A DNA stretch of 32,000 nucleotides from Candidatus Woesearchaeota archaeon (GTDB taxonomy: Archaea; Nanobdellota; Nanobdellia; Pacearchaeales; GW2011-AR1), in NCBI GenBank assembly GCA_964578845.1, contig CAZOEF010000002.1:220696-252695 (forward strand), written 5' to 3'. The notes beneath the pieces were generated by a model. It saw nothing but the letters and a program-made list of their open reading frames with translations, ran no database searches and was not told the DNA's origin. The position numbers were made by a program, and so were the translations under genes. Below, piece by piece: positions 7,005 through 31,310 of this stretch (position 1 is the stretch's first letter; each line of letters begins with the position of its first letter).

Positions 7005-8123
7005 CTAAACCCCTTTTTGTGCAGGAAAGGCTTTAACGATTTGCGAAAAATCAAACTCAATTTTAAGCTCAAACATTTCGTGAATAAGAACCACGATATT
7101 ATGTGCTAATACCTTGCAGAGAATCTCATTGTTTTGGCTTCTATCAGATTTGCATCTACAACTATCTCCAAATTTTCTCTTAATCATCGCAAAACAGGTT
7201 TCTACATTACTCCTCTTATGGTAGTGTTCGGCAAATTCTAGGTAGTTTTGGGTAAACAATTTGAACATCTTAGCCCAAGTTGGAGAGCCTCTTGCTTTTC
7301 CCGTCACATTGGATTTGAAAGGAATGTAAGGCATTGCTCCAAGTTCTTTAGCTAACTCAAGGTTATCTCTTGATGAATAAGCCTTGTCTGCTGTGACTTC
7401 TTTAATGTCAAAATGTTCTGCTGTTTGTCTAAGTAATGGTTCAAACATAGTTGAATCTCCTATGTTGCCTTTGGTTATTTCTACAGCAGTGATTACATTA
7501 GTTTTAACGCCACAGAGAACATGTGCTTTCTTGTATTTGCCGAGAGGAGACTTTATTCTATGTTTAATGTCCAACCACCTGTCAAATCTTTGTGTTCCAA
7601 ACCCTGTTGAATCAACTGCAAATCTCTTTTCAATGTGTTTAAGAGGTAATGCGGAAATATTGATGAGATAATGAAGTATCATTCTCATTCCACTATCATC
7701 AAAATAGTTCAGGACCGTATTGAAGTGCGGAACGTCTTGAATATATCCTGCTCTCTTTGCAAGTTCTAAATCCGAGATTAATCTTCTTGAAGAAGTATTT
7801 GTATAAATCTTTATCATAGAGCAAAAAATCATATCTCTCAAGGATTTACGAGGCCTTCCAAAAGTGTATGTTCTTTTTGGAACTACATTTAACAGCTCAG
7901 CAAGAAGTTTGTAAAAGATTAGTTTCTCCTTTGTTTGTGCTTGATTGTATTCGGCCCATTGCTGAGTGTGGACTTTATTCTGAGTCAAATTATGATATTC
8001 CATCTGATTATGCTCTAACGAACTAGAAGGAGGTATCTGTAACTCTGAACTGCTTTTTTCAGTCTTCGGAAACGAGTCCGAAAAATCTTTATACTTATCT
8101 TTTCTATTGTTTTTGGAATTCAT
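7005..8123 (-). CDS. IS4-family DDE transposase
   Basis: The DDE candidates are AVDSTGF, TADKAYSS and NVETCF. HYHKRSNVETCFAMIKRKFG fits the IS4 signature Y-(2)-R-(3)-E-(6)-K exactly. The ORF-track start at 8264 is TTG and its first 47 residues (G/P/R-rich) are atypical, so I trimmed to the ATG at 8123 (MNSKNNRK...). Confidence 0.85.
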   Translation of the reverse strand: MNSKNNRKDKYKDFSDSFPKTEKSSSELQIPPSSSLEHNQMEYHNLTQNKVHTQQWAEYNQAQTKEKLIFYKLLAELLNVVPKRTYTFGRPRKSLRDMIFCSMIKIYTNTSSRRLISDLELAKRAGYIQDVPHFNTVLNYFDDSGMRMILHYLINISALPLKHIEKRFAVDSTGFGTQRFDRWLDIKHRIKSPLGKYKKAHVLCGVKTNVITAVEITKGNIGDSTMFEPLLRQTAEHFDIKEVTADKAYSSRDNLELAKELGAMPYIPFKSNVTGKARGSPTWAKMFKLFTQNYLEFAEHYHKRSNVETCFAMIKRKFGDSCRCKSDRSQNNEILCKVLAHNIVVLIHEMFELKIEFDFSQIVKAFPAQKGV

Positions 8124-8250
8124 TTGCGTGGGTTCCTGGGGACTTCGGTCCCCATTAATGATTATGGGCGTAAGAAAGGAGCACCTTGTCCTCAGGGCAT
8201 GTGTTGTTTGGTAACCTCCCCCGACCTTCGGGGGTGCTACCTTCCCTACA
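8124..8250 (-). ncRNA. GC-rich structured leader or ncRNA upstream of the transposase ATG
   Basis: A hand count gives 66 G+C in 120 nt (8131-8250), against visibly AT-rich flanks. The hairpins are GGGGAC-ttcg-GTCCCC (8138-8153) and CCCCCGA-cct-TCGGGGG (8218-8234). A 16-bp long-range helix pairs 8170-8185 with 8233-8249. Read on the minus strand it has 14 Watson-Crick pairs, 2 G-U pairs and one bulged U. On the plus strand the two G-U pairs become A-C mismatches. Confidence 0.4.
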
Positions 8251-8268
8251 AAAAAACTACGCAATTAG

Positions 8269-9407: not shown

Positions 9408-10253
9408 ATGAAAATCCCAACAATAAAAAGTCCGCTTCGTTACCCTGGAGGAAAATCTAAGGCTCTGAAAAAGATACTTCCAATTATCTTGGATTTTGAT
9501 GAGTTCAGAGAACCGATGGTCGGAGGCGGCTCTGTTTTTTTTGCATTGAAGCAAAAATATCCTAATAAGAAATATTGGATAAACGATATAAACAAAGATT
9601 TAATTTTGTTTTATCAATATTACCAGAAAGAACCAACTAAACTAATAAATGAAATCAAAACAATAAAAAAGAAACGCCCTAATGGAAAAGTTCTGTACTC
9701 AAACCTTATAAAAAATTCTGATAATCTTGAGGAGTTTCAAAGAGCAACAAGATTTTTTATTCTTAATAGAGTAACTTTTTCTGGATTAACTGAAGCAGGA
9801 GGATATTCCGAAGAGGCTTTCGTGAAGAGATTTACAGACTCTTCAATACAAAGACTGTCTGAAGCTTCTGATTTACTAAAGGGTATCAAGATAACTAACA
9901 AAGATTATTCCGATGCCCTAAAAGAAAGTGGAGGTAATGTTTTCATATTCCTTGACCCACCATACATGTCAAATTCAAAATCTAAACTATATGGAAAAAG
10001 GGGGTGTTTCCATGAAGGTTTTGACCACAAGAATTTTGCAGAAGATATGAAAAGATGCAAACATAAGTGGTTAATAACATACGATGATACTCCAGAAGTT
10101 AGGAAATTATTTTCTTTTGCAAATATTTACAAATGGAAATTGCAGTATTCTATGAAAAATCATAATGGTAATGGAAACCCAAAAGGTAAAGAATTATTTA
10201 TCTGTAATTTTAAGGTTCCACTAGAGGTAAGAAAACTTTTTGTTCAAATATGA
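9408..10253 (+). CDS. N6-adenine DNA methyltransferase, Dam/D12 class
   Basis: LRYPGGKSK near the N-terminus, the SAM-binding motif EPMVGGGSVFF, and the catalytic FLDPPY motif. Confidence 0.85.
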   Translation: MKIPTIKSPLRYPGGKSKALKKILPIILDFDEFREPMVGGGSVFFALKQKYPNKKYWINDINKDLILFYQYYQKEPTKLINEIKTIKKKRPNGKVLYSNLIKNSDNLEEFQRATRFFILNRVTFSGLTEAGGYSEEAFVKRFTDSSIQRLSEASDLLKGIKITNKDYSDALKESGGNVFIFLDPPYMSNSKSKLYGKRGCFHEGFDHKNFAEDMKRCKHKWLITYDDTPEVRKLFSFANIYKWKLQYSMKNHNGNGNPKGKELFICNFKVPLEVRKLFVQI

Positions 10254-10254
10254 T

Positions 10255-10286
10255 TTTGTGCAAATGGATATAGGAGATTGCACAAA
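10255..10286. promoter_or_regulatory. palindrome TTTGTGCAA-n14-TTGCACAAA between the two MTase genes
   Basis: The 9-bp perfect arms are at 10255-10263 and 10278-10286, starting 2 nt after the Dam-class stop codon. The core TTGTGCAA is the same as in the transposon TIRs. Confidence 0.5.
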
Positions 10287-10338
10287 TTAAATAGTAATTG
10301 CTAGAAAATAATAAATACCTTTACTACAAGAATAGATT

Positions 10339-11298
10339 ATGGACACAAGAAAAGAGATGAAAGTTGTTGATTTGTTCTGCGGTGCAGGAGGGCTGTCTTT
10401 GGGTTTAGCTCAGGCTGGTTTTAAGATAGTAGCAGCCTATGATAATTGGAAAAAAGCAATAGAAACGTACAAGAGAAATTTTAATCACAGCAATATTAAA
10501 GTTTTAGATTTAACCCAATTAAAGGATAAAAACCATCCTGAAATACTTGAAATTAAAAAAATTAATCCAGAAATAGTTGTTGGGGGACCACCTTGTCAGG
10601 ATTTTAGTTCTGCTGGAAAAAGAAATGGCGATGGGGAAAGAGGCAACCTAACCCCTCTCTTTGCAGAAATTGTAGTAGCTATCTCTCCAGAATGGGCTGT
10701 GATGGAAAATGTAAATACTATTAAATCAACTGGTGAGGAACAACTAAAGAAAGCTAAAAAGACCCTCCATGAAGCAGGATATGGTATTTCAACCATGGTC
10801 TTAAATGCTGCAGATTTTGGAGCTCCTCAAAATCGCAAGAGATTCTTTCTTATAGCTAGAAAGGGTGGAAAAGATGGCGAGATGGAAGAGTACATAAAGA
10901 GACAAAAAAAACAAAAGATAAGTGTAAAAGATTATTTCTCATCACTCGGAGATAACCTTGGAGGTTTTCAACACTATTACCGTCATCCAAGAAGTTACGG
11001 TAGGAGAGCTATCTTTAGTATAGATGAACTCAGCCCTACAATAAGAGGAGTAAGTCGTCCAATGCCTAAAAATTATAAGTTTCATAAAGGAGATACCATA
11101 AAAAATAGAAATAAAATAATGGTAATGAATTCTGAACAAAGAGCTACAGTCCAAACTTTCCCAAAGGACTTTGAATGGATTGGAGTAAAGTCAGAAGTTG
11201 AACTTCAAATAGGTAATTCCGTCCCTCCTGTTTTGGCTTCAGCTATAGCCAAAGCGATTAAAGATTACGAAAAGAGCAACATATCAAATTATATCTAA
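10339..11298 (+). CDS. DNA (cytosine-5) methyltransferase
   Basis: All the canonical motifs are present in order: I DLFCGAGG, IV GGPPCQDFS, VI ENV, VIII QNRKRFF, X GNSVPP. Confidence 0.9.
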   Translation: MDTRKEMKVVDLFCGAGGLSLGLAQAGFKIVAAYDNWKKAIETYKRNFNHSNIKVLDLTQLKDKNHPEILEIKKINPEIVVGGPPCQDFSSAGKRNGDGERGNLTPLFAEIVVAISPEWAVMENVNTIKSTGEEQLKKAKKTLHEAGYGISTMVLNAADFGAPQNRKRFFLIARKGGKDGEMEEYIKRQKKQKISVKDYFSSLGDNLGGFQHYYRHPRSYGRRAIFSIDELSPTIRGVSRPMPKNYKFHKGDTIKNRNKIMVMNSEQRATVQTFPKDFEWIGVKSEVELQIGNSVPPVLASAIAKAIKDYEKSNISNYI

Positions 11299-12245
11299 CT
11301 TTCATCTAACTCCATGTTAGCAAGAGTAAAAATTATACTGGCATCTAGCCTTCTTTCAGGGCTTAATTGCTTTATAGAGTCTGGCAAGACTATTTTTTGT
11401 AGCTCAGAAAAATTCAGCCTAGGAGCACTGTATATTTTTCCCAACTCTGGTTTGTGCTCAAAAGGATAAAGAGTAATTTTTAGGTGGTCTCTACTGCCTT
11501 CTGAATCTCCTAAATAAGTTATCTTGTCAGAATTCTTAAATTCTTTAATCCAACTGAGAATTTGGTCTACAACTCTGCCGATTCTAGTTTTTATCATTGT
11601 TCCACGAGAAGTTTTCTCATGGGTTGAATTCAAAAGAATTTTAAGATACGCCAAATCTGTGATAGCAACAACATCAAGAGAGTTTTTTTGGTCAATCCTA
11701 GAATCATGGTTAACAGTTTTCCAAATACCATGTAGAATAAATAAGTCTTGATTTTTCTCTTGTTTTGTTAAAATGCTCTTTAGTTCAGATATTGAAGGAT
11801 TTTTACTTAGGTATCTCCCAAATTTGTAGCAAAGTCTTTCAGCAAAATTGAATTGTGTATTTTGTCTGACAATCATTTCAGTAACTTTACTCTCCGCGTG
11901 TGTCGGAACCACTGTGAGCTTAATCTCAAATTCCAGTAAGAATTTATCTCCTAAGGAAGCCCCCATATCAACACCTGGAGCCCTTCTACTTTTAGAATAA
12001 GAAGGATTTCTGCATTCACTTCCCCAAACAATTTCCTTCAATTTGTCTTTTTTAGTTCCAATTAGCTCACTAAAAAACCTTTCCTCTATCTTTAATTCGC
12101 CAGAACCTACCGAAAGCACTGGAAGTCTCAAATTCTTGTCCTCCAAGAATATTGACGCAGATACTGGAACGTAGGTTGTAAATATGTTTTTTGTTAGAAC
12201 CGTGCTAACATTTGTGTTTTTTACTCCGTATAACTCTTCCGCCAT
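11295..12245 (-). CDS. putative type II restriction endonuclease (PD-(D/E)XK candidate)
   Basis: It is convergent with the C5 MTase and the stop codons overlap by 4 bp. GVDMG(D93)...LLEFE(107)IK(109) fits D-x13-E-x-K. No family was recognised from memory, and the specificity is unknown. Confidence 0.5.
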   Translation of the reverse strand: MAEELYGVKNTNVSTVLTKNIFTTYVPVSASIFLEDKNLRLPVLSVGSGELKIEERFFSELIGTKKDKLKEIVWGSECRNPSYSKSRRAPGVDMGASLGDKFLLEFEIKLTVVPTHAESKVTEMIVRQNTQFNFAERLCYKFGRYLSKNPSISELKSILTKQEKNQDLFILHGIWKTVNHDSRIDQKNSLDVVAITDLAYLKILLNSTHEKTSRGTMIKTRIGRVVDQILSWIKEFKNSDKITYLGDSEGSRDHLKITLYPFEHKPELGKIYSAPRLNFSELQKIVLPDSIKQLSPERRLDASIIFTLANMELDES

Positions 12246-22777: not shown

Positions 22778-24550
22778 ATGATAACTAGAGAAGATTTAGC
22801 AAAAAAATATACTGAGTTCTATAAGTCTAATAACCATAAGGAAATACCTTCAGCTTCGCTTATTCCGGAAAATGATCCTACAGTCCTGTTTACTACAGCT
22901 GGGATGCATCCTTTAGTTCCTTTCTTGACAGGGCAGAAGCATGCTTTAGGAAAAAGGCTAGTCAATGTCCAGAAATGCATACGCACAGGCGATATAGATG
23001 AAGTCGGAGACAAAGTGCACCATACATTCTTTGAGATGTTAGGTAACTGGTCACTCGGAGATTACTGGAAAGAGGATGCTATAAAGTTCTCTTATGAATT
23101 CTTCACTAAAGTATTGAAGCTGAAAAAGGAAAGGTTAGCAGTAAGTTGTTTTGCAGGCGATGAGACTGCTCCGAAAGATGAAGAATCAGCTAAAGTGTGG
23201 GAATCTTTAGGATTCACTAAAGATAGGATTGCTTTCCTTCCAAAAAAAGATAACTGGTGGGGTCCTGCTGGAAATACTGGTCCTTGTGGTCCTGACACTG
23301 AGATATTCTGCTGGACAGGAAAAGAAAAAGCTCCAGAGAAATTCGATCCTGAAAATAAAAAATGGGTTGAGATAGGAAACAATGTATTGATGCAGTACAA
23401 CAAAGTTTCTGATACTGAATACCTTGAATTAAAACAGAAAAATGTTGACTTCGGAGGCGGACTAGAAAGAACTTTAGCGATATTGAACAAAGTAGATGAC
23501 AATTATTTGACTCCTATATTCCTGCCAATAATAAAGGAGATAGAAAAGATATCTAAGAAAAATTATTCATCTAATGAAAAAGCGATGAGGGTTATTGCTG
23601 ACCATATCAAGGCAGCAACTTTCATCTTAGGGGATGAAAAATCGTTAAAACCAAGCAATACTGAACATGGATACGTCCTTAGGAGATTGATAAGAAGAGC
23701 GATCAGGTATGGAAAGCTCTTAGGTATTAAAAATAACTTCACAGCCAAAATAGCTATTTCAGTAATTGAATTATATGAAAAAGCATATCCTGAGTTAAAG
23801 AGAAACAAGAATTTTATATTGACAGAATTAGACGAAGAAGAGAACAAGTTCAATAACACTCTTGAAAAAGGATTGAGGCAATTCGACAAATTAACCTCCG
23901 ATAAAGTATTGTCAGGAAAAGATGCATTCTTATTATTCCAGTCTTACGGCTTCCCTATAGAGATGACAATAGAAATGGCAAATGAGAAAAAAATAAAAGT
24001 AGACACAAAAGCTTACGAAAAAGAATACAAAAAACACCAGGAGCTTTCAAGGACTGCTTCAGCTGGAATGTTCAAATCAGGTTTAGCAGATAATTCAGAG
24101 CAGACAACCAGATTGCATACTGCAACTCATTTATTGAATGAGGCATTAAGAAGAGTTTTAGGCGATGAAGTAAAACAAAAAGGCTCTAATATAACTCCTG
24201 AAAGATTAAGGTTTGACTTTAATTTCTCTAGAAAGCTTACAGAAGAAGAAAAGCAGAAAGTGGAAGATTTAGTGAATGAGAAGATAGATGCTAGCCTTAA
24301 AGTAGAGCGTTCAGAGATGAAATTAAAAGACGCTTTCAAGGCAGGAGCTCAGTCAGAGTTCGGCCATAAATATCCTGAAGTAGTCTCTGTCTATACTATA
24401 GAAGATCCCTCAGAAGATAAAGGCTGGTTTAGCAAGGAGATCTGCACAGGCCCCCACGTAAAGAACACTAAAGAGATTGGTAAATTTAAGATTGCTAAAG
24501 AAGAATCTTCCTCAGCTGGTGTAAGAAGGATAAAAGCTGTTATAAACTAA
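22778..24550 (+). CDS. alaS: alanine--tRNA ligase, short form lacking the C-Ala domain
   Basis: It has ENDPTVLFTTAGMHP and FEMLGNWSLGDYW (class II core), plus the editing-domain zinc motifs HTATHLL and CTGPHV. The protein ends about 35 aa after CTGPHV, at 590 aa. Confidence 0.9.
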   Translation: MITREDLAKKYTEFYKSNNHKEIPSASLIPENDPTVLFTTAGMHPLVPFLTGQKHALGKRLVNVQKCIRTGDIDEVGDKVHHTFFEMLGNWSLGDYWKEDAIKFSYEFFTKVLKLKKERLAVSCFAGDETAPKDEESAKVWESLGFTKDRIAFLPKKDNWWGPAGNTGPCGPDTEIFCWTGKEKAPEKFDPENKKWVEIGNNVLMQYNKVSDTEYLELKQKNVDFGGGLERTLAILNKVDDNYLTPIFLPIIKEIEKISKKNYSSNEKAMRVIADHIKAATFILGDEKSLKPSNTEHGYVLRRLIRRAIRYGKLLGIKNNFTAKIAISVIELYEKAYPELKRNKNFILTELDEEENKFNNTLEKGLRQFDKLTSDKVLSGKDAFLLFQSYGFPIEMTIEMANEKKIKVDTKAYEKEYKKHQELSRTASAGMFKSGLADNSEQTTRLHTATHLLNEALRRVLGDEVKQKGSNITPERLRFDFNFSRKLTEEEKQKVEDLVNEKIDASLKVERSEMKLKDAFKAGAQSEFGHKYPEVVSVYTIEDPSEDKGWFSKEICTGPHVKNTKEIGKFKIAKEESSSAGVRRIKAVIN

Positions 24551-26886: not shown

Positions 26887-28284
26887 TTATTTCTTTGTAA
26901 TTTTTTTCTTGGATTTCTTGCCCTTAGCTGTTGTTTTGCTTAAGATTCTCTTTCTTGTAATACCTACAACAAAATAAGCCCCTACAATAAGTGCGAAGAA
27001 GATCAATATCCCTAGTCCAGTTGGCCTGCCATTAGGGCCTATTACTGCCCCTGTTATCCTGGCTAAAGCGCCTGGTTGTTCAACTGTCTCATTTAAAACC
27101 AAAGGAGTCTCACATTCCTGTACTAATGCAGGCCTGTTAAATGTAGTGCTACAAGAATATTTCTGGGTGCATTCCCTTACCTGTAGTCCGTCAGTGCAAG
27201 CGCTCCATTCTTCGCAAGTCCATATCTCTGAGCATCCCCTACTAGGTCTGTCTTCATCTTCTTCTTCATCTTCAGAAGATACTGAGTTTATTGGTGTATT
27301 TTGGGGAGGATTTTCAACCTGTATTGGATATTCAACCTTTGCTAAATTATTCAAGGCATCTTTTGCAGTGCATTCCAGAATATACCTTCCGTCTTCAGAG
27401 AACCCTGATCCCCCAAAAGTGAAAGTGCCATTTACTTCGAAAGGATTTTGCTCAGTACAATTGCCGTTATCACATGCAACTTTCCATTTGCACATAACTT
27501 CAACATTCCCAACAGCATTAGGCCCAGGATCATCTCCGCTAACAATCAATTCAGCATCACTAGTTATATGATAGCTGCCATTAGTATCAATAGAATTATT
27601 AGTGATCGGAACACCAAAAATAATTATAGGTGCCTGGGAATCGACAATATGTATTTGCCTATCTGGATCAGATCTTACTCCCTCATTATTTCCTGCACCA
27701 TCAGAACAATGGTACTCGACAATATGTTTTCCGTCTTCAGGATAGCTGAAATCCATAAACCAGCTGGAGGATGTCCCGAAACCACGCATCCATATTAGGT
27801 CATTGATGTCAGTTGAGCCTTCAGGAAAAACCCTATAGGATAAATCAACATTGCCTGATTCATCATCACTGCACATTATCCTGATTTCAGTATCCTGGTT
27901 TACATAATAATCACACTCATCTGCTGAGCATTCAACATAATCTCCTGTAAAAGAAATATTGATTTCAGGGGATGTTTCATCCAGCATGCATTGGGAATAG
28001 TCTATTTCACATTCATCAGTGCATCCTATGTCCCCGAAATTATAATCACTGTCATCTGAGCAAGATAGTCCTGTTAAATTCCCCATATCTATCCCGTCAC
28101 ATTGTTCTTCAACAGCATTTACTATTCCGTCCCCGCAATAAGGTTCAGGCAGAGGAACTTCTCCTTCAACATCACTATCAGCAGAATCACTATTACTAGC
28201 ATCAGCAGGCTGAGCTAAAACAAAAGTCAATGAGAAAACTAATACCAGCATCAGCAACATCACCCTGTTCAGCTTAGTCAACAT
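26887..28284 (-). CDS. secreted acidic Cys-rich surface protein with a C-terminal TM anchor
   Basis: It has a signal peptide (MLLMLVLVFSLTFVLAQPA), a YCGDGIVNAVEEQCDG cysteine-rich repeat motif and an acidic linker. A TSP1-like segment (WTCEEWSACTDGLQVRECT) follows, then a TM helix and a Lys-rich tail. Confidence 0.6.
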   Translation of the reverse strand: MLTKLNRVMLLMLVLVFSLTFVLAQPADASNSDSADSDVEGEVPLPEPYCGDGIVNAVEEQCDGIDMGNLTGLSCSDDSDYNFGDIGCTDECEIDYSQCMLDETSPEINISFTGDYVECSADECDYYVNQDTEIRIMCSDDESGNVDLSYRVFPEGSTDINDLIWMRGFGTSSSWFMDFSYPEDGKHIVEYHCSDGAGNNEGVRSDPDRQIHIVDSQAPIIIFGVPITNNSIDTNGSYHITSDAELIVSGDDPGPNAVGNVEVMCKWKVACDNGNCTEQNPFEVNGTFTFGGSGFSEDGRYILECTAKDALNNLAKVEYPIQVENPPQNTPINSVSSEDEEEDEDRPSRGCSEIWTCEEWSACTDGLQVRECTQKYSCSTTFNRPALVQECETPLVLNETVEQPGALARITGAVIGPNGRPTGLGILIFFALIVGAYFVVGITRKRILSKTTAKGKKSKKKITKK

Positions 28285-28316: not shown

Positions 28317-31310
28317 TTACTCTATGTAAATTCCAGGCCTTCCCGGCTTGACTTTCTTGCTCTTCTCTTCAGGATCATGCTTGTTCTTATCTGAGACAGA
28401 ATAGACTATGACTTCCTTGTTTACTCTATTGCTTAATTTTTCAGAATCATAGAATGATAGCTCCTGAGGCAATACATACAAATAGACTTTCTTCGCCTTA
28501 TTCCCTTTGTCTTCTATTATCTTTACAATATTCAATATATCCTCGACAGTCTTATCCACTTGCTTCGCTAGTGCCTCAAGCTTCTCATTTATCTTCTTCT
28601 CGTCATAACTAGGCCATCTCTCTACTGATAGCAATGTCTTGTTTCCTAATTTGCTCCATAATTCTTCAGCTATATGTGGACATATTGGCGAAAGCAGTTT
28701 AAGGAATATCTCTAAGCTCTTCCTGTCACATCCTTCTTCTAATGTTGTGAATAGCTCTCTTAATTTTATTATCGCTAGATTATATCTGAAATTCTCTAAA
28801 TCATTAGTATAATCCCTTATTGTCCTGTGCAATTTGCTTTCTGCTAATTCTGTTAATTTGCTAGGCTTAAAGCTCTTGAAGAAGTTAATAACTCTTAGGA
28901 CAAATCTTAAGCTTCCTTCCATGCCCTTTGTATCCCAATTGAAGTCGTTATCTGGCGAGGCAACACTGATAAGGAACATTCTCAAGGCATCAGTTCCGTA
29001 TTTGACAATCATATCACTAGGATTTATGACATTCCCATATGACTTGCTCATCTTCCTTCCATCTTCTCCGGAAATAAAGCCTTGATTGAACAATCTCACA
29101 ACCGGCTCATCAACATTAATCAAGCCTAAATCCCTTAAGAACTTAGTATAGAATCTAGAGTATATCATGTGCAGCGTTGCATGCTCTCTTCCACCGACAT
29201 AAATGTCGATAGGCATCCAATAGTTTGCCTTTTTAGGATCAAATATCTGTTTCTCATTATGCGGATCAGTATATCTCAAGAAATACCATGATGAGTTTAC
29301 AAAAGTGTCCATTGTATCAGTCTCCCGTCTCCCGTTTCCATTACATTTCGGACATTTGACTTTGACAAATTTATCATTATTCTTAAGGGGATTCTCGACG
29401 CTGTCAAACTTGATATTATCTGGAAGTTTCACAGGTAAATCTTTCTCTGGAACAGGCACAGCTCCGCAATCATCACAATATATTATAGGTATAGGAGTCC
29501 CCCAGAATCTCTGCCTTGACACTAGCCAATCTCTTAATCTAAATTTCACAGTTTTCCTTCCTTTTCCTTTTTCTTCCAAGGCGATTCTTATATGCTCTTT
29601 GGCTTCATCGCTCATCAAGTCACTGAATCCTTCTGAGTTCACTAGTTTTCCAAATCCGGTATAAGCTTTCTTATCCATATCTACCTCATCTAAAGGCTTG
29701 ACAACCTGCTTGATAGATAAATTATATTTCTTCGCGAATTCAAAATCTCTCTGGTCGTGCGCAGGAACAGCCATCACCATCCCACTTCCATAATCAGCCA
29801 CTACAAAATTACCTGTCCAGATTGGAATATCTTGATTAGTCAATGGATGCTTGGCATAACTTCCTGTAAATACTCCTTCCTTGTCTAGTTTATCCATATC
29901 TTCTTCCTTAGTTGATTTTACTTTTTTCAAAAACGCCTCAACATCTTTCTTCTGTTCAACAGTAACCAAAGACATCAAATCAGGATGCTGAACTGAAACA
30001 GCCAAGAATGTAACTCCGAATAATGTATCAGGACGGGTGGTGAAAACTTTCCAGTTATTCAAGCAATTATGCAATACAACAGGCTCTTTCTTTCCAGTAA
30101 TATGCTCATCTTCCGCTGTGAAATCAATGATTCTCCCGCCAAGCTTCTTAGACATTATTTCTGCCTGCGTTTTTGGAATTTCTGTATCACCCTCATCTCT
30201 AAGTAGGATTATTTCTTTGGCATTATTTTTTATCTTGTTAAAATCAAATTTCCAGTCAAATGCCTCGGAATAGGGTTTGTTCTCTACAACCTCTACAAAA
30301 CCTGCAGCCAAAATCAGCTTCTTTATTGGTTTGTCCAAACTTTCAACAACTTTCAATGCGACTGCACCCCCTAAACTATGTCCTAATAAAACAGTATCTT
30401 CATTGAATTCACAATTATCTAAAACATATTTAACCTGATCGACTACTTTAGGATTATTTGTATTCGGTAGCTCCGGGGCGCTTACTCTATAACCTTTTGA
30501 TTCAAGCTCCTTCTTTAACCACGGATGGAAGTCTTCATTAGGATCAGCTGTATATCCGTGTAACAGGATAAAATTAGTTTCCTTACTCCAAGGAACTTCA
30601 AAATCAATCTCTGTTCCATAGCTCTTGCCTATCCAGTTCTTCTGCAGCTTTCTGATCTGTTCAGGCCATTCTGTCAAGCTATCTAGTTTCTCATATAACT
30701 CATCAGCGTATTCAGTCGTCTTGAAGAACCATTGCTCTAAATGCTTCACTTGGACATCAGTATCTTCGTGTCGCCAGCATTTTCCATTGACTACTTGTTC
30801 ATTCGCTAGTACAGTATTACATAACGGGCACCAGTTCACAGGGGCTTTCTTCCTGTAAGCTAAGCCTTTTTCGAACATCTTGAGAAATATCCATTGATCC
30901 CATTTGTAATAGGAAGGGTCGTGGCTTTCTACTTTTCTAGTCCAATCATAGCTTAAGCCTAAACCTTTCATCTGTTCAATATAGTTCTTAATTGCGTCTT
31001 CAGTGAATTTCTTTGGATGGGATTTTGCTTTAATAGCTGCATTCTCAGCAGGCAATCCAAATGAATCAAAACCCATCGGGTGCAATACATTGAATCCTTG
31101 CATTATCTTGAGTCTTGCCTGTATATCTGCAATAGTATAATTAAAAGCGTGCCCCATATGTAAGCCACTCCCTGACGGATAAGGATACATCTCTAAAACA
31201 TAATACTTCGGCTTCTTGCTTTTCTCATTAACTTCAAAGACCTTTTCCTTAGCCCAGCGATTCTGCCACTTCTTCTCAATCTTAGCAAAATCAATCATAT
31301 CTAATGCCAT
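28317..31310 (-). CDS. leuS: leucine--tRNA ligase, bacterial type, with an inserted alpha/beta serine-hydrolase domain
   Basis: It has YVLEMYPYPSGSGLHMGH (HIGH), KMSKS, and the CP1 editing motif TTRPDTLFG. These are collinear with E. coli LeuRS except for about 178 extra residues (aa ~241-418) between WIGKSYGTEIDFEV and TTRPDT. Confidence 0.95.
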   Translation of the reverse strand: MALDMIDFAKIEKKWQNRWAKEKVFEVNEKSKKPKYYVLEMYPYPSGSGLHMGHAFNYTIADIQARLKIMQGFNVLHPMGFDSFGLPAENAAIKAKSHPKKFTEDAIKNYIEQMKGLGLSYDWTRKVESHDPSYYKWDQWIFLKMFEKGLAYRKKAPVNWCPLCNTVLANEQVVNGKCWRHEDTDVQVKHLEQWFFKTTEYADELYEKLDSLTEWPEQIRKLQKNWIGKSYGTEIDFEVPWSKETNFILLHGYTADPNEDFHPWLKKELESKGYRVSAPELPNTNNPKVVDQVKYVLDNCEFNEDTVLLGHSLGGAVALKVVESLDKPIKKLILAAGFVEVVENKPYSEAFDWKFDFNKIKNNAKEIILLRDEGDTEIPKTQAEIMSKKLGGRIIDFTAEDEHITGKKEPVVLHNCLNNWKVFTTRPDTLFGVTFLAVSVQHPDLMSLVTVEQKKDVEAFLKKVKSTKEEDMDKLDKEGVFTGSYAKHPLTNQDIPIWTGNFVVADYGSGMVMAVPAHDQRDFEFAKKYNLSIKQVVKPLDEVDMDKKAYTGFGKLVNSEGFSDLMSDEAKEHIRIALEEKGKGRKTVKFRLRDWLVSRQRFWGTPIPIIYCDDCGAVPVPEKDLPVKLPDNIKFDSVENPLKNNDKFVKVKCPKCNGNGRRETDTMDTFVNSSWYFLRYTDPHNEKQIFDPKKANYWMPIDIYVGGREHATLHMIYSRFYTKFLRDLGLINVDEPVVRLFNQGFISGEDGRKMSKSYGNVINPSDMIVKYGTDALRMFLISVASPDNDFNWDTKGMEGSLRFVLRVINFFKSFKPSKLTELAESKLHRTIRDYTNDLENFRYNLAIIKLRELFTTLEEGCDRKSLEIFLKLLSPICPHIAEELWSKLGNKTLLSVERWPSYDEKKINEKLEALAKQVDKTVEDILNIVKIIEDKGNKAKKVYLYVLPQELSFYDSEKLSNRVNKEVIVYSVSDKNKHDPEEKSKKVKPGRPGIYIE
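30057..30590 (-). other. YdeN/RBBP9-like serine-hydrolase domain embedded in LeuRS
   Basis: The domain reads NFILLHGYTADPNEDFHPWLKKELESKGY...LLGHSLGGAVAL...ILLRDEGDTEIP...EDEHI. It parallels B. subtilis YdeN (IIHGY...WFPWLKKRL...AHSLG...KDDQIVP...GGHF). The GHSLGG codons are the rc of 30366-30383. Confidence 0.7.

What the first reader, a model, noticed from the sequence alone, without database searches (positions are those of the whole stretch)
30057..30590. LeuRS carries a complete YdeN/RBBP9-type serine hydrolase domain immediately before the CP1 editing motif
Compared with E. coli LeuRS, where ...GRSEGVEITF is followed within about 15 residues by YTTRPDT, this protein has about 178 extra residues between GKSYGTEIDFEV and FTTRPDTLFG.

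The insert is not low-complexity and not intein-like. It has the ordered signature of the small alpha/beta 'Ser_hydrolase' family:
- ILLHGY and HPWLKKEL
- the nucleophile elbow GHSLGG
- an Asp in RDEGDTEIP
- a His in EDEHI

So a full catalytic triad appears to be retained.

An esterase fold grafted onto the hydrolytic editing module of an aminoacyl-tRNA synthetase suggests an additional or replacement deacylation/proofreading activity, or a moonlighting one. I am not aware of this architecture being described.
Basis: partly seen in the sequence, partly recalled or inferred. Interest (0 to 1): 0.75.

Follow-up and report, generated by a model that had tools for sequence, protein, structure and literature searches.

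The report
Serine hydrolase nested inside leucyl-tRNA synthetase
The leucyl-tRNA synthetase of this tiny archaeon carries a complete, apparently active esterase-type enzyme inside its proofreading module, and because hundreds of ultra-small archaea and bacteria keep the same enzyme either inside or right next to this gene, it may be a new helper for translation quality control.

Summary
The 997-aa LeuRS (28317-31310, minus strand) has 183 residues between GTEIDFEV and FTTRPDT, where insert-less orthologues have 7-8.

**What the insert is**
- It is a YdeN/RBBP9-family alpha/beta serine hydrolase: Pfam PF06821 36 bits (cut-off 22), profile versus PDB YdeN E 5e-29, AF2 pLDDT 95, TM 0.85 to YdeN.
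- Ser312, Asp375 and His403 are among its most conserved columns.
- The CP1 editing motifs, HMGH and KMSKS are intact. The hydrolase is therefore an addition, not a replacement.
- It is not an assembly chimera. The architecture recurs in dozens of independent DPANN assemblies and in CPR LeuRS and IleRS.

**Link to LeuRS**
- Of seven informative free-standing close homologues, four lie 6-49 nt upstream of an insert-less leuS.
- A fifth lies in an operon with a YbaK-type editing domain, Ham1 and an archaeal-type LeuRS.

**Caveats**
- The insert is gained or lost often: at least 15 events on the LeuRS tree, including a pair about 90% identical.
- The same domain is also nested in UvrB, SecA, TsaD, EngA and a glycosyltransferase.

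**Mechanism and novelty**
- Most likely it is an active aminoacyl-ester hydrolase partnered with LeuRS. The chemistry is inferred from RBBP9 and untested.
- I found no published description.

The parts
28317..31310 (-). leuS ORF, 997 aa: bacterial-type LeuRS core with a nested hydrolase and an archaeal-like C-terminal domain
   Evidence: ORF list. TIGR00396 leuS_bact 914.6 bits, cut-off 548.4. Pfam tRNA-synt_1, tRNA-synt_1_2 and Anticodon_1.
30045..30593 (-). Inserted segment, aa 240-422 (183 aa), absent from insert-less orthologues that have a 7-8-aa hairpin
   Evidence: Alignment of 120 homologues. Syntenic insert-less orthologue L093.
30114..30569 (-). Core of the YdeN/RBBP9-type alpha/beta serine hydrolase domain (aa 248-399 by Pfam)
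   Evidence: PF06821 36 bits on the insert alone. Profile versus PDB: YdeN E 5e-29. AF2 pLDDT 94.9, pTM 0.92. Foldseek 1uxo TM 0.85, rmsd 2.0 A.
30558..30560 (-). His251 of the HG motif (LLHGY), the predicted oxyanion-hole turn
   Evidence: H in 74 of 77 DPANN inserts. Invariant in alignment A1.
30375..30377 (-). Ser312 codon (AGT), the nucleophile in the GHSLG elbow
   Evidence: Read directly. S in 75 of 77 inserts and 189 of 192 LeuRS-embedded domains. Aligns with the HS(L/S)G elbow of YdeN and RBBP9, Ser75 in RBBP9.
30186..30188 (-). Asp375 codon (GAT), the triad acid
   Evidence: Read directly. D in 70 and E in 6 of 77 inserts. Aligns with the DD of YdeN and RBBP9.
30102..30104 (-). His403 codon (CAT), the triad base
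   Evidence: Read directly. H in 75 of 77 inserts. Invariant in A1. Aligns with the GHF His of YdeN and RBBP9.
30024..30044 (-). CP1 T-rich editing motif FTTRPDT (aa 423-429), starting one residue after the insert
   Evidence: F, T, T, R, D and T invariant in all 120 homologues, with or without the insert.
29586..30059 (-). CP1 editing domain body (Pfam PF13603, aa 418-575)
   Evidence: PF13603 E 1.3e-58. This half of the AF2 model matches A. aeolicus, E. coli and T. thermophilus CP1 with target-normalised TM 0.81-0.83.
29745..29771 (-). Editing-site motif AVPAHDQRD (aa 514-522), holding the conserved Asp residues equivalent to E. coli D342 and D345
   Evidence: H518, D519, R521 and D522 invariant in all 120 homologues. 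The E. coli numbering is from my own knowledge.
31149..31160 (-). HMGH (HIGH) signature of the synthetic site
   Evidence: Conserved in 76 of 77 insert-bearing and 43 of 43 insert-less homologues.
29040..29054 (-). KMSKS signature of the synthetic site
   Evidence: MSKS invariant.
28320..28724 (-). C-terminal domain (aa 863-997) of archaeal type, ending KPGRPGIYIE
   Evidence: 42% identity, E 1e-31, to the C-terminus of an archaeal-type LeuRS from L083. CPR LeuRS end instead in the bacterial form ...VNGKVR...LVNFVV.

Best explanation
The insert is a folded, catalytically competent YdeN/RBBP9-family alpha/beta serine hydrolase. It is nested in the first beta-hairpin of the CP1 editing domain of an otherwise complete LeuRS, which has a bacterial-type core, an intact CP1 and an archaeal-type C-terminal domain.

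It is an accessory partner of LeuRS, not a substitute for CP1. Lineages of DPANN archaea and CPR bacteria encode it in one of two ways: in cis, nested in LeuRS and also in IleRS, ValRS and AlaRS; or in trans, as a small gene immediately upstream of leuS.

The most likely chemistry is hydrolysis of an alpha-aminoacyl ester or acyl bond carrying a free alpha-amine. Candidate substrates are (mis)aminoacylated tRNA 3' ends, aminoacyl-adenylates or close mimics of them. That would make it an extra quality-control or clean-up activity tethered next to the editing pocket.

- Shown: domain identity, fold, triad conservation, intact CP1, wide distribution, and genomic linkage to leuS.
- Inferred: the substrate class, by analogy with RBBP9, and action in concert with CP1.
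For: **Identity and fold**
- PF06821 scores above its cut-off.
- The insert profile hits YdeN at E 5e-29 and RBBP9 at E 1e-23.
- The AF2 model has pLDDT 94.9. Foldseek gives TM 0.85 to YdeN and 0.82 to RBBP9.

**Activity retained**
- The Ser/Asp(Glu)/His triad and the HG motif are the most conserved columns in 77 DPANN inserts.
- Across 321 domains from all contexts, 189 of 192 LeuRS-embedded copies keep the Ser.

**Addition, not replacement**
- TTRPDT, HDxRD, HIGH and KMSKS are invariant with and without the insert.
- The CP1 half of the two-domain model matches solved CP1 structures.
- The two-domain model has pLDDT 89 and pTM 0.84.

**Link to LeuRS**
- Free-standing close homologues P0275, P0125, P0129 and P0134 lie 49, 25, 36 and 6 nt upstream of insert-less LeuRS genes, on the same strand. 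The contexts are both bacterial and archaeal.
- P0126 heads an operon: hydrolase, hydrolase, PF04073 tRNA_edit, Ham1, archaeal-type LeuRS.
- The best 80 species-level loci are all inside LeuRS (62) or IleRS (18).
- In IleRS the domain sits at the equivalent place, just before WTTTPWTLP.
- Copies also occur in ValRS and AlaRS.

**Chemistry precedent**
- RBBP9 forms acyl-enzymes with single Leu/Ile, Met, Phe, Tyr and Trp residues and needs a free alpha-amine. [quoted passage not shown]
- RBBP9 has been reported as a valacyclovir-activating enzyme (Shenoy 2020, title seen). Valacyclovir is an L-valyl ester of a nucleoside analogue (my own knowledge).
Against: - No biochemical data exist.
- The orientation of the active site relative to the CP1 pocket or the tRNA path could not be measured, because the tools return no coordinates.
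- The insert is dispensable and labile. There are at least 15 gain/loss events on a tree of 177 LeuRS.
- P0089 (with hydrolase and NUDIX) and P0100 (with neither) are 87-93% identical and lie at syntenic loci.
- The syntenic orthologue of the window gene lacks the insert and has no hydrolase gene within 4 kb.
- The same domain, 45-61% identical to LeuRS or free copies, is nested in UvrB, SecA, TsaD, EngA and a GT2 glycosyltransferase and is fused C-terminally to a Ham1 domain. This fits a generally insertable enzyme module.
- Two of seven free-standing genes have no aaRS neighbour.
- RBBP9's alpha-amine anchor Glu108 has no clearly conserved counterpart in the loop alignment.
- No conserved motif specific to the LeuRS-embedded copies was found.
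Confidence: 0.45

Rival explanations
1. Passenger domain at a permissive loop. The hydrolase is an autonomous housekeeping esterase or aminopeptidase whose function has nothing to do with tRNA. It is simply tolerated in a surface hairpin of CP1, as it is in loops of other large essential proteins. The gain is co-expression or resistance to gene loss in very small genomes.
For: - The same domain is nested in UvrB, SecA, TsaD, EngA and GT2, fused C-terminally to a Ham1 domain, and fused to peptidase S51, a methyltransferase and other hydrolases.
- The copies in different hosts are interleaved by similarity.
- Within LeuRS the domain occurs at three or more different sites.
- CP1 also hosts NUDIX, nucleotidyltransferase-like and unknown modules, and even an IS200-like transposase domain.
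- Gain and loss are frequent.
- The conserved core is the same in every context.
Against: - Four of seven free-standing genes lie immediately upstream of leuS in divergent lineages, and a fifth lies in an operon with a YbaK-type editing domain and LeuRS. With about 1 chance in several hundred per gene, this is far beyond random placement.
- All 80 best species-level loci are in LeuRS or IleRS.
- Insertion at the equivalent pre-T-rich site in two different synthetases.
Confidence: 0.25
2. Amino-acid supply. Like RBBP9, the domain is an aminopeptidase that removes N-terminal hydrophobic residues from scavenged peptides. It would deliver Leu (or Ile, Val, Ala) locally to the synthetase in organisms that cannot make amino acids.
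For: - RBBP9 is an aminopeptidase that traps Leu/Ile, Met, Phe, Tyr and Trp (PMC8866121).
- The synthetase hosts are those for hydrophobic or small amino acids: LeuRS, IleRS, ValRS, AlaRS.
- One relative is fused to a peptidase S51 domain.
Against: - The RBBP9 pocket residues are not conserved.
- The model does not explain the co-operon with a YbaK-type editing domain and Ham1.
- It does not explain the co-inserted NUDIX modules or the non-synthetase hosts.
- No channel between the sites is evident or testable here.
Confidence: 0.12
3. Self-protection. The hydrolase, like the GNAT, NUDIX and nucleotidyltransferase-like modules found in the same CP1 loops, inactivates natural synthetase inhibitors that mimic aminoacyl-adenylates or carry ester bonds. 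It would do so right at the target enzyme.
For: - The modules nested in CP1 of LeuRS and IleRS belong to small-molecule-modifying enzyme classes: GNAT, NUDIX, PF10706 nucleotidyltransferase, esterase.
- NCBIfam files 'ileS_w_GNAT' as an 'exception' model alongside the mupirocin-resistant MupA and MupB.
- From my own knowledge: MccE (GNAT) and MccF (serine peptidase) detoxify aminoacyl-nucleotide antibiotics.
Against: - The case is purely circumstantial, with no homology to MccF.
- The non-synthetase hosts are unexplained.
- The insert's wide, ancient distribution argues against a narrow resistance role.
Confidence: 0.08
4. Artefact or selfish element: an assembly chimera, an intein, or an intron-borne ORF that is removed before the mature enzyme forms.
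For: - Precise presence/absence between close relatives.
- An 8-nt repeat (CTATTTTC) at both junctions in one locus.
- An IS200-like domain in-frame in one LeuRS.
Against: - The frame is continuous and the composition uniform.
- The architecture recurs in many independent assemblies.
- There are no Hint, intein or homing-endonuclease hits and no Cys/Ser...His-Asn junctions.
- No Rfam intron is present in the window.
- The triad is under purifying selection.
- AF2 folds both domains together with confidence.
Confidence: 0.02

Closest known systems
B. subtilis YdeN (PDB 1uxo) and human RBBP9 (2qs9, 7oex): Pfam PF06821 'Ser_hydrolase'
   Same: - The same minimal, lid-less alpha/beta hydrolase fold of about 180-190 aa (TM 0.85 and 0.82).
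- A full-length profile match.
- The same order of HG, GHSxG, D and H motifs.
   Different: - YdeN and RBBP9 are free-standing proteins. This copy is nested inside another enzyme's editing domain.
- Sequence identity is only 19-24%.
- RBBP9's substrate-pocket residues (Glu108, Tyr99, Phe140, Leu141; PMC8866121) are not recognisably conserved.
- YdeN's substrate is unknown.
Bacterial LeuRS with CP1 post-transfer editing domain (E. coli, T. thermophilus, A. aeolicus)
   Same: - Equivalog-level match.
- CP1 placed after the zinc hairpin.
- T-rich and HDxRD editing motifs, HIGH and KMSKS all present.
- The CP1 fold matches with target-normalised TM 0.81-0.83.
   Different: - A 183-aa hydrolase lies between the first two strands of CP1.
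- No PDB entry covers both halves of the model (query-normalised TM 0.45 or less).
- The C-terminal domain is archaeal-like rather than bacterial.
Chimeric haloarchaeal LeuRS, NmLeuRS1/2 of Natrialba magadii (Fang et al. 2014, PMC4005665)
   Same: An archaeon using a LeuRS with a bacterial-type N-terminal region and an archaeal-type tRNA-binding C-terminal domain.
   Different: No nested hydrolase is reported there. The lineage is different (DPANN rather than Halobacteria).
NCBIfam NF040702 'isoleucine--tRNA ligase, N-acetyltransferase domain-containing'
   Same: A curated case of an unrelated enzyme domain carried by a class Ia synthetase, and so the nearest catalogued analogue of the architecture.
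   Different: - A different host (IleRS) and a different guest (GNAT).
- The window protein scores 110 bits against a cut-off of 1999.
- The Saccharibacteria IleRS that carry the hydrolase are not members either.
Free-standing trans-editing factors (YbaK/ProX, PF04073; AlaX) versus cis editing domains (INS, AlaRS editing domain)
   Same: - The same cis-or-trans genomic logic. The module is either embedded in the synthetase or encoded as a small separate gene next to it.
- One operon contains both a YbaK-type domain and two of these hydrolases.
   Different: - The fold and catalytic machinery are unrelated.
- To my knowledge and within the searches run, no alpha/beta-hydrolase Ser-His-Asp enzyme is known as an aminoacyl-tRNA deacylase.

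Membership tests
Pfam PF06821 Ser_hydrolase (YdeN/RBBP9 family) | Profile match above the curated gathering score | tested here: met
   36.0 bits on the insert alone and 31.2 bits in the full protein, cut-off 22. The 32-sequence profile hits YdeN at E 5.3e-29 and RBBP9 at E 1e-23.
Pfam PF06821 Ser_hydrolase (YdeN/RBBP9 family) | Compact lid-less alpha/beta-hydrolase fold of about 180-190 residues | tested here: met
   AF2 pLDDT 94.9, pTM 0.92. Foldseek: 1uxo TM 0.85, rmsd 2.0 A over 177 columns. RBBP9 TM 0.82-0.83.
Pfam PF06821 Ser_hydrolase (YdeN/RBBP9 family) | Ser-Asp-His triad in canonical order, with a G-H-S-x-G nucleophile elbow | tested here: met
   S312, D375 and H403 align with the HS, DD and GHF motifs of YdeN and RBBP9. 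They are conserved in 75, 70 (plus 6 Glu) and 75 of 77 inserts, and across all hosts.
Pfam PF06821 Ser_hydrolase (YdeN/RBBP9 family) | RBBP9-type substrate pocket (alpha-amine anchor Glu108, hydrophobic cage) | tested here: inconclusive
   The loop alignment places K/R345 opposite Glu108, and E377/I378 opposite Phe140/Leu141. The alignment is unreliable in this loop.
Pfam PF06821 Ser_hydrolase (YdeN/RBBP9 family) | Hydrolytic activity dependent on the Ser nucleophile | not testable with these tools
   Requires enzyme assays or activity-based probe labelling.
Bacterial-type LeuRS (TIGR00396 leuS_bact) | Equivalog HMM above cut-off; HIGH and KMSKS signatures | tested here: met
   914.6 bits against 548.4. 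HMGH and KMSKS are present and conserved.
Bacterial-type LeuRS (TIGR00396 leuS_bact) | Functional-looking CP1 editing domain (T-rich motif, conserved Asp motif) | tested here: met
   FTTRPDT and AVPAHDQRD are invariant among 120 homologues. PF13603 E 1.3e-58. Structural match to solved CP1 domains.
Bacterial-type LeuRS (TIGR00396 leuS_bact) | Bacterial C-terminal tRNA-binding domain | tested here: not met
   The TIGR00396 match ends at profile position 800 of 843. The C-terminus is 42% identical (E 1e-31) to that of an archaeal-type LeuRS. The enzyme is therefore chimeric.
Known aaRS editing or trans-editing domain families (CP1, INS/YbaK PF04073, AlaX/tRNA_SAD, DTD) | The insert itself belongs to one of these folds | tested here: not met
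   The insert alone hits only alpha/beta-hydrolase families in Pfam and NCBIfam. Its structural neighbours are all alpha/beta hydrolases.
Inteins and intron-encoded inserts | Hint/intein or homing-endonuclease domains, Cys/Ser at the N-junction and His-Asn plus Cys/Ser/Thr at the C-junction, or a group I/II intron RNA | tested here: not met
   No such Pfam hits. The junctions read FEV|PWSKE and NNWKV|FTT. No Rfam family is found in the window.
NCBIfam NF040702 ileS_w_GNAT | Score above the curated cut-off | tested here: not met
   110.3 bits against 1999 for the window protein. It is an analogue only.

The most novel reading that the evidence does not exclude
This YdeN/RBBP9-type hydrolase would be a previously unrecognised class of aminoacyl-ester hydrolase for translation quality control. 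It would act as a third hydrolytic site that clears mischarged tRNA, or noncognate aminoacyl-adenylates or their mimics. Ultra-small symbiotic archaea (DPANN) and bacteria (CPR, including human oral Saccharibacteria) would deploy it in cis, nested in LeuRS, IleRS, ValRS or AlaRS, or in trans, as a leuS-adjacent gene. It would be the first alpha/beta-hydrolase-fold editing factor.
Probability: 0.3. Interest if true: 0.88.

Novelty: new variant of a known kind. Interest (0 to 1): 0.72.

Why it matters
Aminoacyl-tRNA synthetase editing is carried out by a small, well-catalogued set of folds: CP1, INS/YbaK, AlaX/N2, DTD and the PheRS B3/B4 domains. A catalytic-triad alpha/beta hydrolase that is physically nested at the entrance of CP1, or encoded next to leuS, in hundreds of species would add a new player to translational fidelity if it acts on aminoacyl esters.

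It would also give an orphan family a physiological context. YdeN has no known substrate. RBBP9 was shown only in 2022 to cleave single N-terminal amino acids.

Even if the function proves unrelated to tRNA, three things remain of interest:
- CP1 and other housekeeping proteins of CPR and DPANN organisms act as hot-spots for in-frame insertion of whole enzymes (hydrolase, NUDIX, GNAT, nucleotidyltransferase-like).
- These inserts turn over quickly, with precise gain and loss. That is a notable mode of protein evolution in minimal genomes.
- The LeuRS and IleRS of oral Saccharibacteria are potential drug targets with unusual architecture.

The hypothesis is directly testable with a Ser312Ala mutant.

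Tried and rejected
- **Assembly chimera: rejected.** The frame is continuous and GC uniform. The identical protein sits on a 284-kb contig, and many independent assemblies show the same architecture.
- **Intein or intron: rejected.** There are no Hint or endonuclease hits, no splice-junction residues and no Rfam hit.
- **Replacement of a degenerate CP1: rejected.** The editing motifs are invariant with and without the insert. Only one leuS with an adjacent free hydrolase (L084) has a degenerate T-rich motif (VYDSIPQT), and it keeps HDERD. That is a single case, not a pattern.
- **N-terminal hydrolase-LeuRS fusions as a third 'Rosetta' state: not supported.** Most proteins that start with the hydrolase align to LeuRS only from the insertion point onward. 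They look like fragments of nested genes.
- **Mapping RBBP9 pocket residues onto the insert: inconclusive**.
- **Motifs specific to LeuRS-embedded copies: none convincing.** The only difference seen was EQ versus W after the PxxP turn.
- **Target-site duplication:** an 8-nt repeat flanks the insert in L081. No comparable repeat is evident in the window, so it was not pursued.
- **Literature:** six searches found no description of the architecture. Shenoy 2020 could not be opened, so only its title is cited.
- **Look-up of the window protein's contig:** not on record, so the organism's name remains unknown.
- **One wasted query:** a mistyped locus range, repeated correctly.
- **Geometry:** whether Ser312 faces the CP1 pocket could not be assessed. 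Structure prediction returns no coordinates or PAE, only pLDDT and pTM.

Full report
**1. Observation**

The minus-strand ORF at 28317-31310 encodes a 997-aa protein.
- It is a leucyl-tRNA synthetase of bacterial type. TIGR00396 scores 914.6 bits against a cut-off of 548.4, and the match falls into two stretches separated by the region in question.
- I aligned the 120 best database relatives. In 77 of them, 164-377 residues lie between the strand GKSxGTEIDFE(I/V) and the CP1 motif FTTRPDT. The window protein has 183 (aa 240-422, window 30045-30593).
- The other 43 have only a 7-24-residue linker there, usually 7-8.
- GC content does not change across the junctions.
- The identical protein is on a 283,760-bp NCBI contig.
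- A syntenic orthologue has the same neighbours as the window gene: a tRNA-intron endonuclease divergently upstream and BacA downstream. It lacks the insert.

The insert is therefore a real, lineage-variable feature and not an assembly artefact.

**2. What the insert is**

- The insert alone matches Pfam PF06821 (Ser_hydrolase) at 36 bits against a cut-off of 22. It gives weaker hits to generic alpha/beta-hydrolase families.
- A profile built from 32 inserts (alignment A1) finds B. subtilis YdeN at E 5.3e-29 and human RBBP9 at E 1e-23, over essentially their full lengths. The next PDB hits are worse by 17 orders of magnitude or more.
- AlphaFold2 folds the segment with pLDDT 94.9 and pTM 0.92.
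- Foldseek returns YdeN (TM 0.85, rmsd 2.0 A) and RBBP9 (TM 0.82-0.83) as the top structures.
- Ser312 (in GHSLG), Asp375 and His403 align with the triads of YdeN and RBBP9. Together with His251 of the HG turn, they are the most conserved columns of the insert: 75, 70 (plus 6 Glu) and 75 of 77.
- Across 321 domain copies from all contexts, the triad is retained almost everywhere.

**3. The host enzyme is intact**

- The T-rich motif, the GxGxVMAVPxHDxRD editing motif, HMGH and KMSKS are invariant or nearly so in LeuRS with and without the insert.
- A two-domain AF2 model (aa 224-598) has pLDDT 89.4 and pTM 0.84.
- Its CP1 half superposes on the solved CP1 domains of A. aeolicus, E. coli and T. 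thermophilus, with target-normalised TM 0.81-0.83 and 43-47% identity.
- No PDB entry covers both halves of that model.

The hydrolase is therefore an addition to a complete editing synthetase, not a replacement. In passing, the C-terminal domain is of archaeal type: 42% identity and E 1e-31 to an archaeal LeuRS C-terminus. The enzyme is thus chimeric, like the haloarchaeal LeuRS described by Fang et al. (PMC4005665).

The neighbouring genes place the window in an archaeon. They include a tRNA-intron endonuclease, TFIIE-alpha, Nre, an ATP-dependent DNA ligase and a RadB-like protein. The named relatives are Woesearchaeota, Pacearchaeota and Nanoarchaeota, all DPANN.

**4. Distribution**

- A scan of one genome per species found 435 loci encoding a relative of the insert. 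The best 80 are all inside class Ia synthetases: 62 LeuRS and 18 IleRS.
- Many of these are CPR/Patescibacteria: Saccharibacteria (including oral Nanosynbacter), Paceibacterota, Doudna-, Kaiser-, Vogel- and Levyibacteria.
- In CPR LeuRS the insert is at the same place as in the window protein.
- In Saccharibacteria IleRS it sits at the equivalent place, just before WTTTPWTLP. It is often accompanied by a second hydrolase copy plus NUDIX- or GNAT-like modules.
- An exhaustive profile search of 1.84 billion cluster representatives gave 5,455 hits at E 1e-3 or better, and 276 at E 1e-30 or better.
- Of the best 150 hits, 75 are free-standing proteins under 230 aa (nearly all 167-214 aa) and 51 are in LeuRS. 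Others are in ValRS and AlaRS. The domain is also nested inside SecA, TsaD, UvrB, EngA and a GT2 glycosyltransferase, is fused C-terminally to a Ham1 domain, and is fused to other enzymes.
- Copies in these unrelated hosts are 45-61% identical to LeuRS-embedded or free copies. They are not a separate branch.
- LeuRS itself carries the domain at three or more different sites, and in one case as a tandem pair.
- A second CP1 loop, at window aa about 546, hosts NUDIX, nucleotidyltransferase-like and unknown modules in relatives.

**5. Dynamics**

- On a neighbour-joining tree of 177 LeuRS with the insert masked, presence or absence needs at least 15 changes.
- The extreme case is P0089 (1181 aa, with hydrolase and NUDIX) versus P0100 (834 aa, with neither). 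They are 87-93% identical in protein sequence and 85-90% in DNA, and their loci are syntenic.
- Both indels in that pair are precise to the domain boundary.

The insert is therefore not essential to LeuRS function and turns over quickly.

**6. Link to LeuRS**

I looked up the genomic context of the top-ranked free-standing homologues in rank order.
- Four of the seven informative ones lie directly upstream of a LeuRS gene that lacks the site-1 insert, on the same strand. These are P0275, P0125, P0129 and P0134, which belong to different 50%-identity clusters. The gaps are 49, 25, 36 and 6 nt, and the contexts are both bacterial and archaeal.
- A fifth, P0126 from a Pacearchaeota genome, heads a tight co-directional cluster. 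The order is hydrolase, a second hydrolase of another subtype, a PF04073 (YbaK-type) tRNA-editing domain, Ham1, and an archaeal-type LeuRS.
- Two have no synthetase nearby.

For genomes of several hundred genes, this adjacency cannot be chance. Taken with the nested forms, it is the classic 'fused here, adjacent there' signature of a functional partnership. It is the strongest evidence that the domain does something for, or together with, LeuRS.

**7. Mechanism**

Shown:
- The domain is an intact catalytic-triad hydrolase.
- It is tethered within one residue of the T-rich strand that forms part of the editing pocket.
- CP1 is retained.
- The hydrolase is genomically linked to leuS and, in one case, to a YbaK-type editing factor and a nucleotide house-cleaning enzyme.

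Inferred:
- RBBP9 is the only family member with defined chemistry. It forms acyl-enzyme intermediates with single Leu/Ile, Met, Phe, Tyr or Trp residues and requires a free alpha-amine. [quoted passage not shown]
- RBBP9 has also been reported to activate valacyclovir (title seen), an amino-acid ester of a nucleoside analogue (my own knowledge).
- An aminoacyl-tRNA 3' end or an aminoacyl-adenylate is the same kind of substrate.

I therefore favour an accessory aminoacyl-ester or acyl hydrolase that serves quality control around LeuRS, with confidence about 0.45. The layers carry different confidence: the nested, active-looking domain about 0.95, the partnership with LeuRS about 0.8, and the substrate class about 0.4.

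The main rival (about 0.25) is an autonomous passenger enzyme tolerated at permissive loops.
- For it: the unrelated hosts, the many sites, the rapid turnover, and the lack of any motif specific to the LeuRS-embedded copies.
- Against it: it does not explain the conserved adjacency to leuS.

Lesser rivals are an aminopeptidase supplying hydrophobic amino acids, and a detoxifier of aminoacyl-adenylate-like inhibitors. The chimera, intein and intron readings are excluded.

**8. Comparison with what is known, and novelty**

- The guest domain is a member of PF06821. Sequence, fold and triad all pass. The RBBP9 pocket comparison is inconclusive, and activity was not testable.
- The host is a bacterial-type LeuRS except for its C-terminal domain.
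- The insert does not belong to any known editing-domain family.
- The nearest catalogued architectural analogue is NCBIfam's IleRS-with-GNAT model. Neither the window protein nor the hydrolase-bearing IleRS are members of it.
- Public annotation calls these proteins 'leucine--tRNA ligase', 'class I tRNA ligase family protein' or 'alpha/beta fold hydrolase'.
- Six full-text searches found no paper describing the architecture or any alpha/beta-hydrolase tRNA deacylase. The library is incomplete, so this is absence of evidence only.

I rate the finding a new variant of a known kind: a synthetase with an accessory hydrolytic module.

**9. Verdict**

The hydrolase is additional rather than a replacement. 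The link to LeuRS is supported. The chemistry and geometry are untested, and the domain is not exclusive to editing sites.
- Interest is 0.72.

Noticed in passing
window about 29673-29675 (LeuRS aa ~546, loop after 'IKQVV' inside CP1); homologues P0003, P0042, P0080, P0115, P0097, P0008, P0020, P0053: A second insertion hot-spot in CP1. The window protein has no insert there. Relatives carry 85-170-aa modules at this point: NUDIX (PF00293), a nucleotidyltransferase-like domain (PF10706), and at least three unrelated modules with no Pfam hit.
   Followed up: partly
L037, L050, L056 and 15 other loci (Saccharibacteria, including Nanosynbacter): IleRS of oral and environmental Saccharibacteria carry the same hydrolase just before the WTTTPWTLP editing motif. 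Usually there is a second hydrolase copy after it. L056 adds a NUDIX-like module, and L037 adds GNAT and nucleotidyltransferase-like modules. These proteins reach about 1,450-1,500 aa.
   Followed up: partly
P0146 (SecA), P0152 (TsaD), P0194 and P0206 (UvrB), P0198 (EngA), P0200 (GT2), P0190 (Ham1), P0169 (AlaRS), P0172 (ValRS): The same hydrolase domain, with an intact triad, is nested in-frame inside unrelated housekeeping enzymes and follows a Ham1 domain in P0190. All of these hosts bind nucleotides. Whether that is meaningful is unknown.
   Followed up: partly
P0178 (Parcubacteria LeuRS, NCBI MCX6741383.1): An IS200-like Y1 transposase domain (PF01797) lies in-frame at CP1 site 1 (aa 269-374), with a hydrolase further downstream (aa 644-816). 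It could be a mobile element or IStron-like insertion read through by the gene caller.
   Followed up: no
L083:5001-9882 (Pacearchaeota, GCA_020049755.1): A co-directional gene cluster: hydrolase (subtype A), hydrolase (subtype B), YbaK-type tRNA_edit domain, Ham1, archaeal-type LeuRS. It reads like a 'sanitation' operon.
   Followed up: partly
L084:5607-8060: This CPR LeuRS has a free-standing hydrolase gene 49 nt upstream. Its own T-rich editing motif is degenerate (VYDSIPQT instead of FTTRPDT), although it keeps HDERD. It may be a case where CP1 editing is weakened.
   Followed up: partly
L081 and L082 (syntenic loci of P0089 and P0100): An 81-aa GIY-YIG nuclease-domain ORF lies divergently just upstream of leuS in both the insert-bearing and the insert-less locus. 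In L081 an 8-nt direct repeat, CTATTTTC, flanks the hydrolase insert.
   Followed up: partly
window 28320-28724 (LeuRS aa 863-997): The LeuRS is chimeric. It combines a bacterial-type catalytic core and CP1 with an archaeal-type C-terminal tRNA-binding domain ending KPGRPGIYIE, as reported for haloarchaeal LeuRS.
   Followed up: yes
window 7005-8264 (-) and 9408-12245: An IS-type DDE transposase gene lies next to a restriction-modification cluster. The cluster holds a D12 N6-adenine methylase, a C5-cytosine methylase and a HindVP-like endonuclease.
   Followed up: no
window 22778-24550 (+): The AlaRS is only 590 aa, with the catalytic domain plus the SAD motif. It is much shorter than the usual roughly 870-900 aa and has no hydrolase insert. 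A relative elsewhere (P0169) carries the hydrolase between its catalytic and editing parts.
   Followed up: no
window 26887-28284 (-): A 465-aa ORF lies directly downstream of leuS. It has an N-terminal signal-like segment, a Cys-rich repeat region, an acidic stretch and a C-terminal membrane anchor, with no Pfam match. It is probably a surface protein.
   Followed up: no
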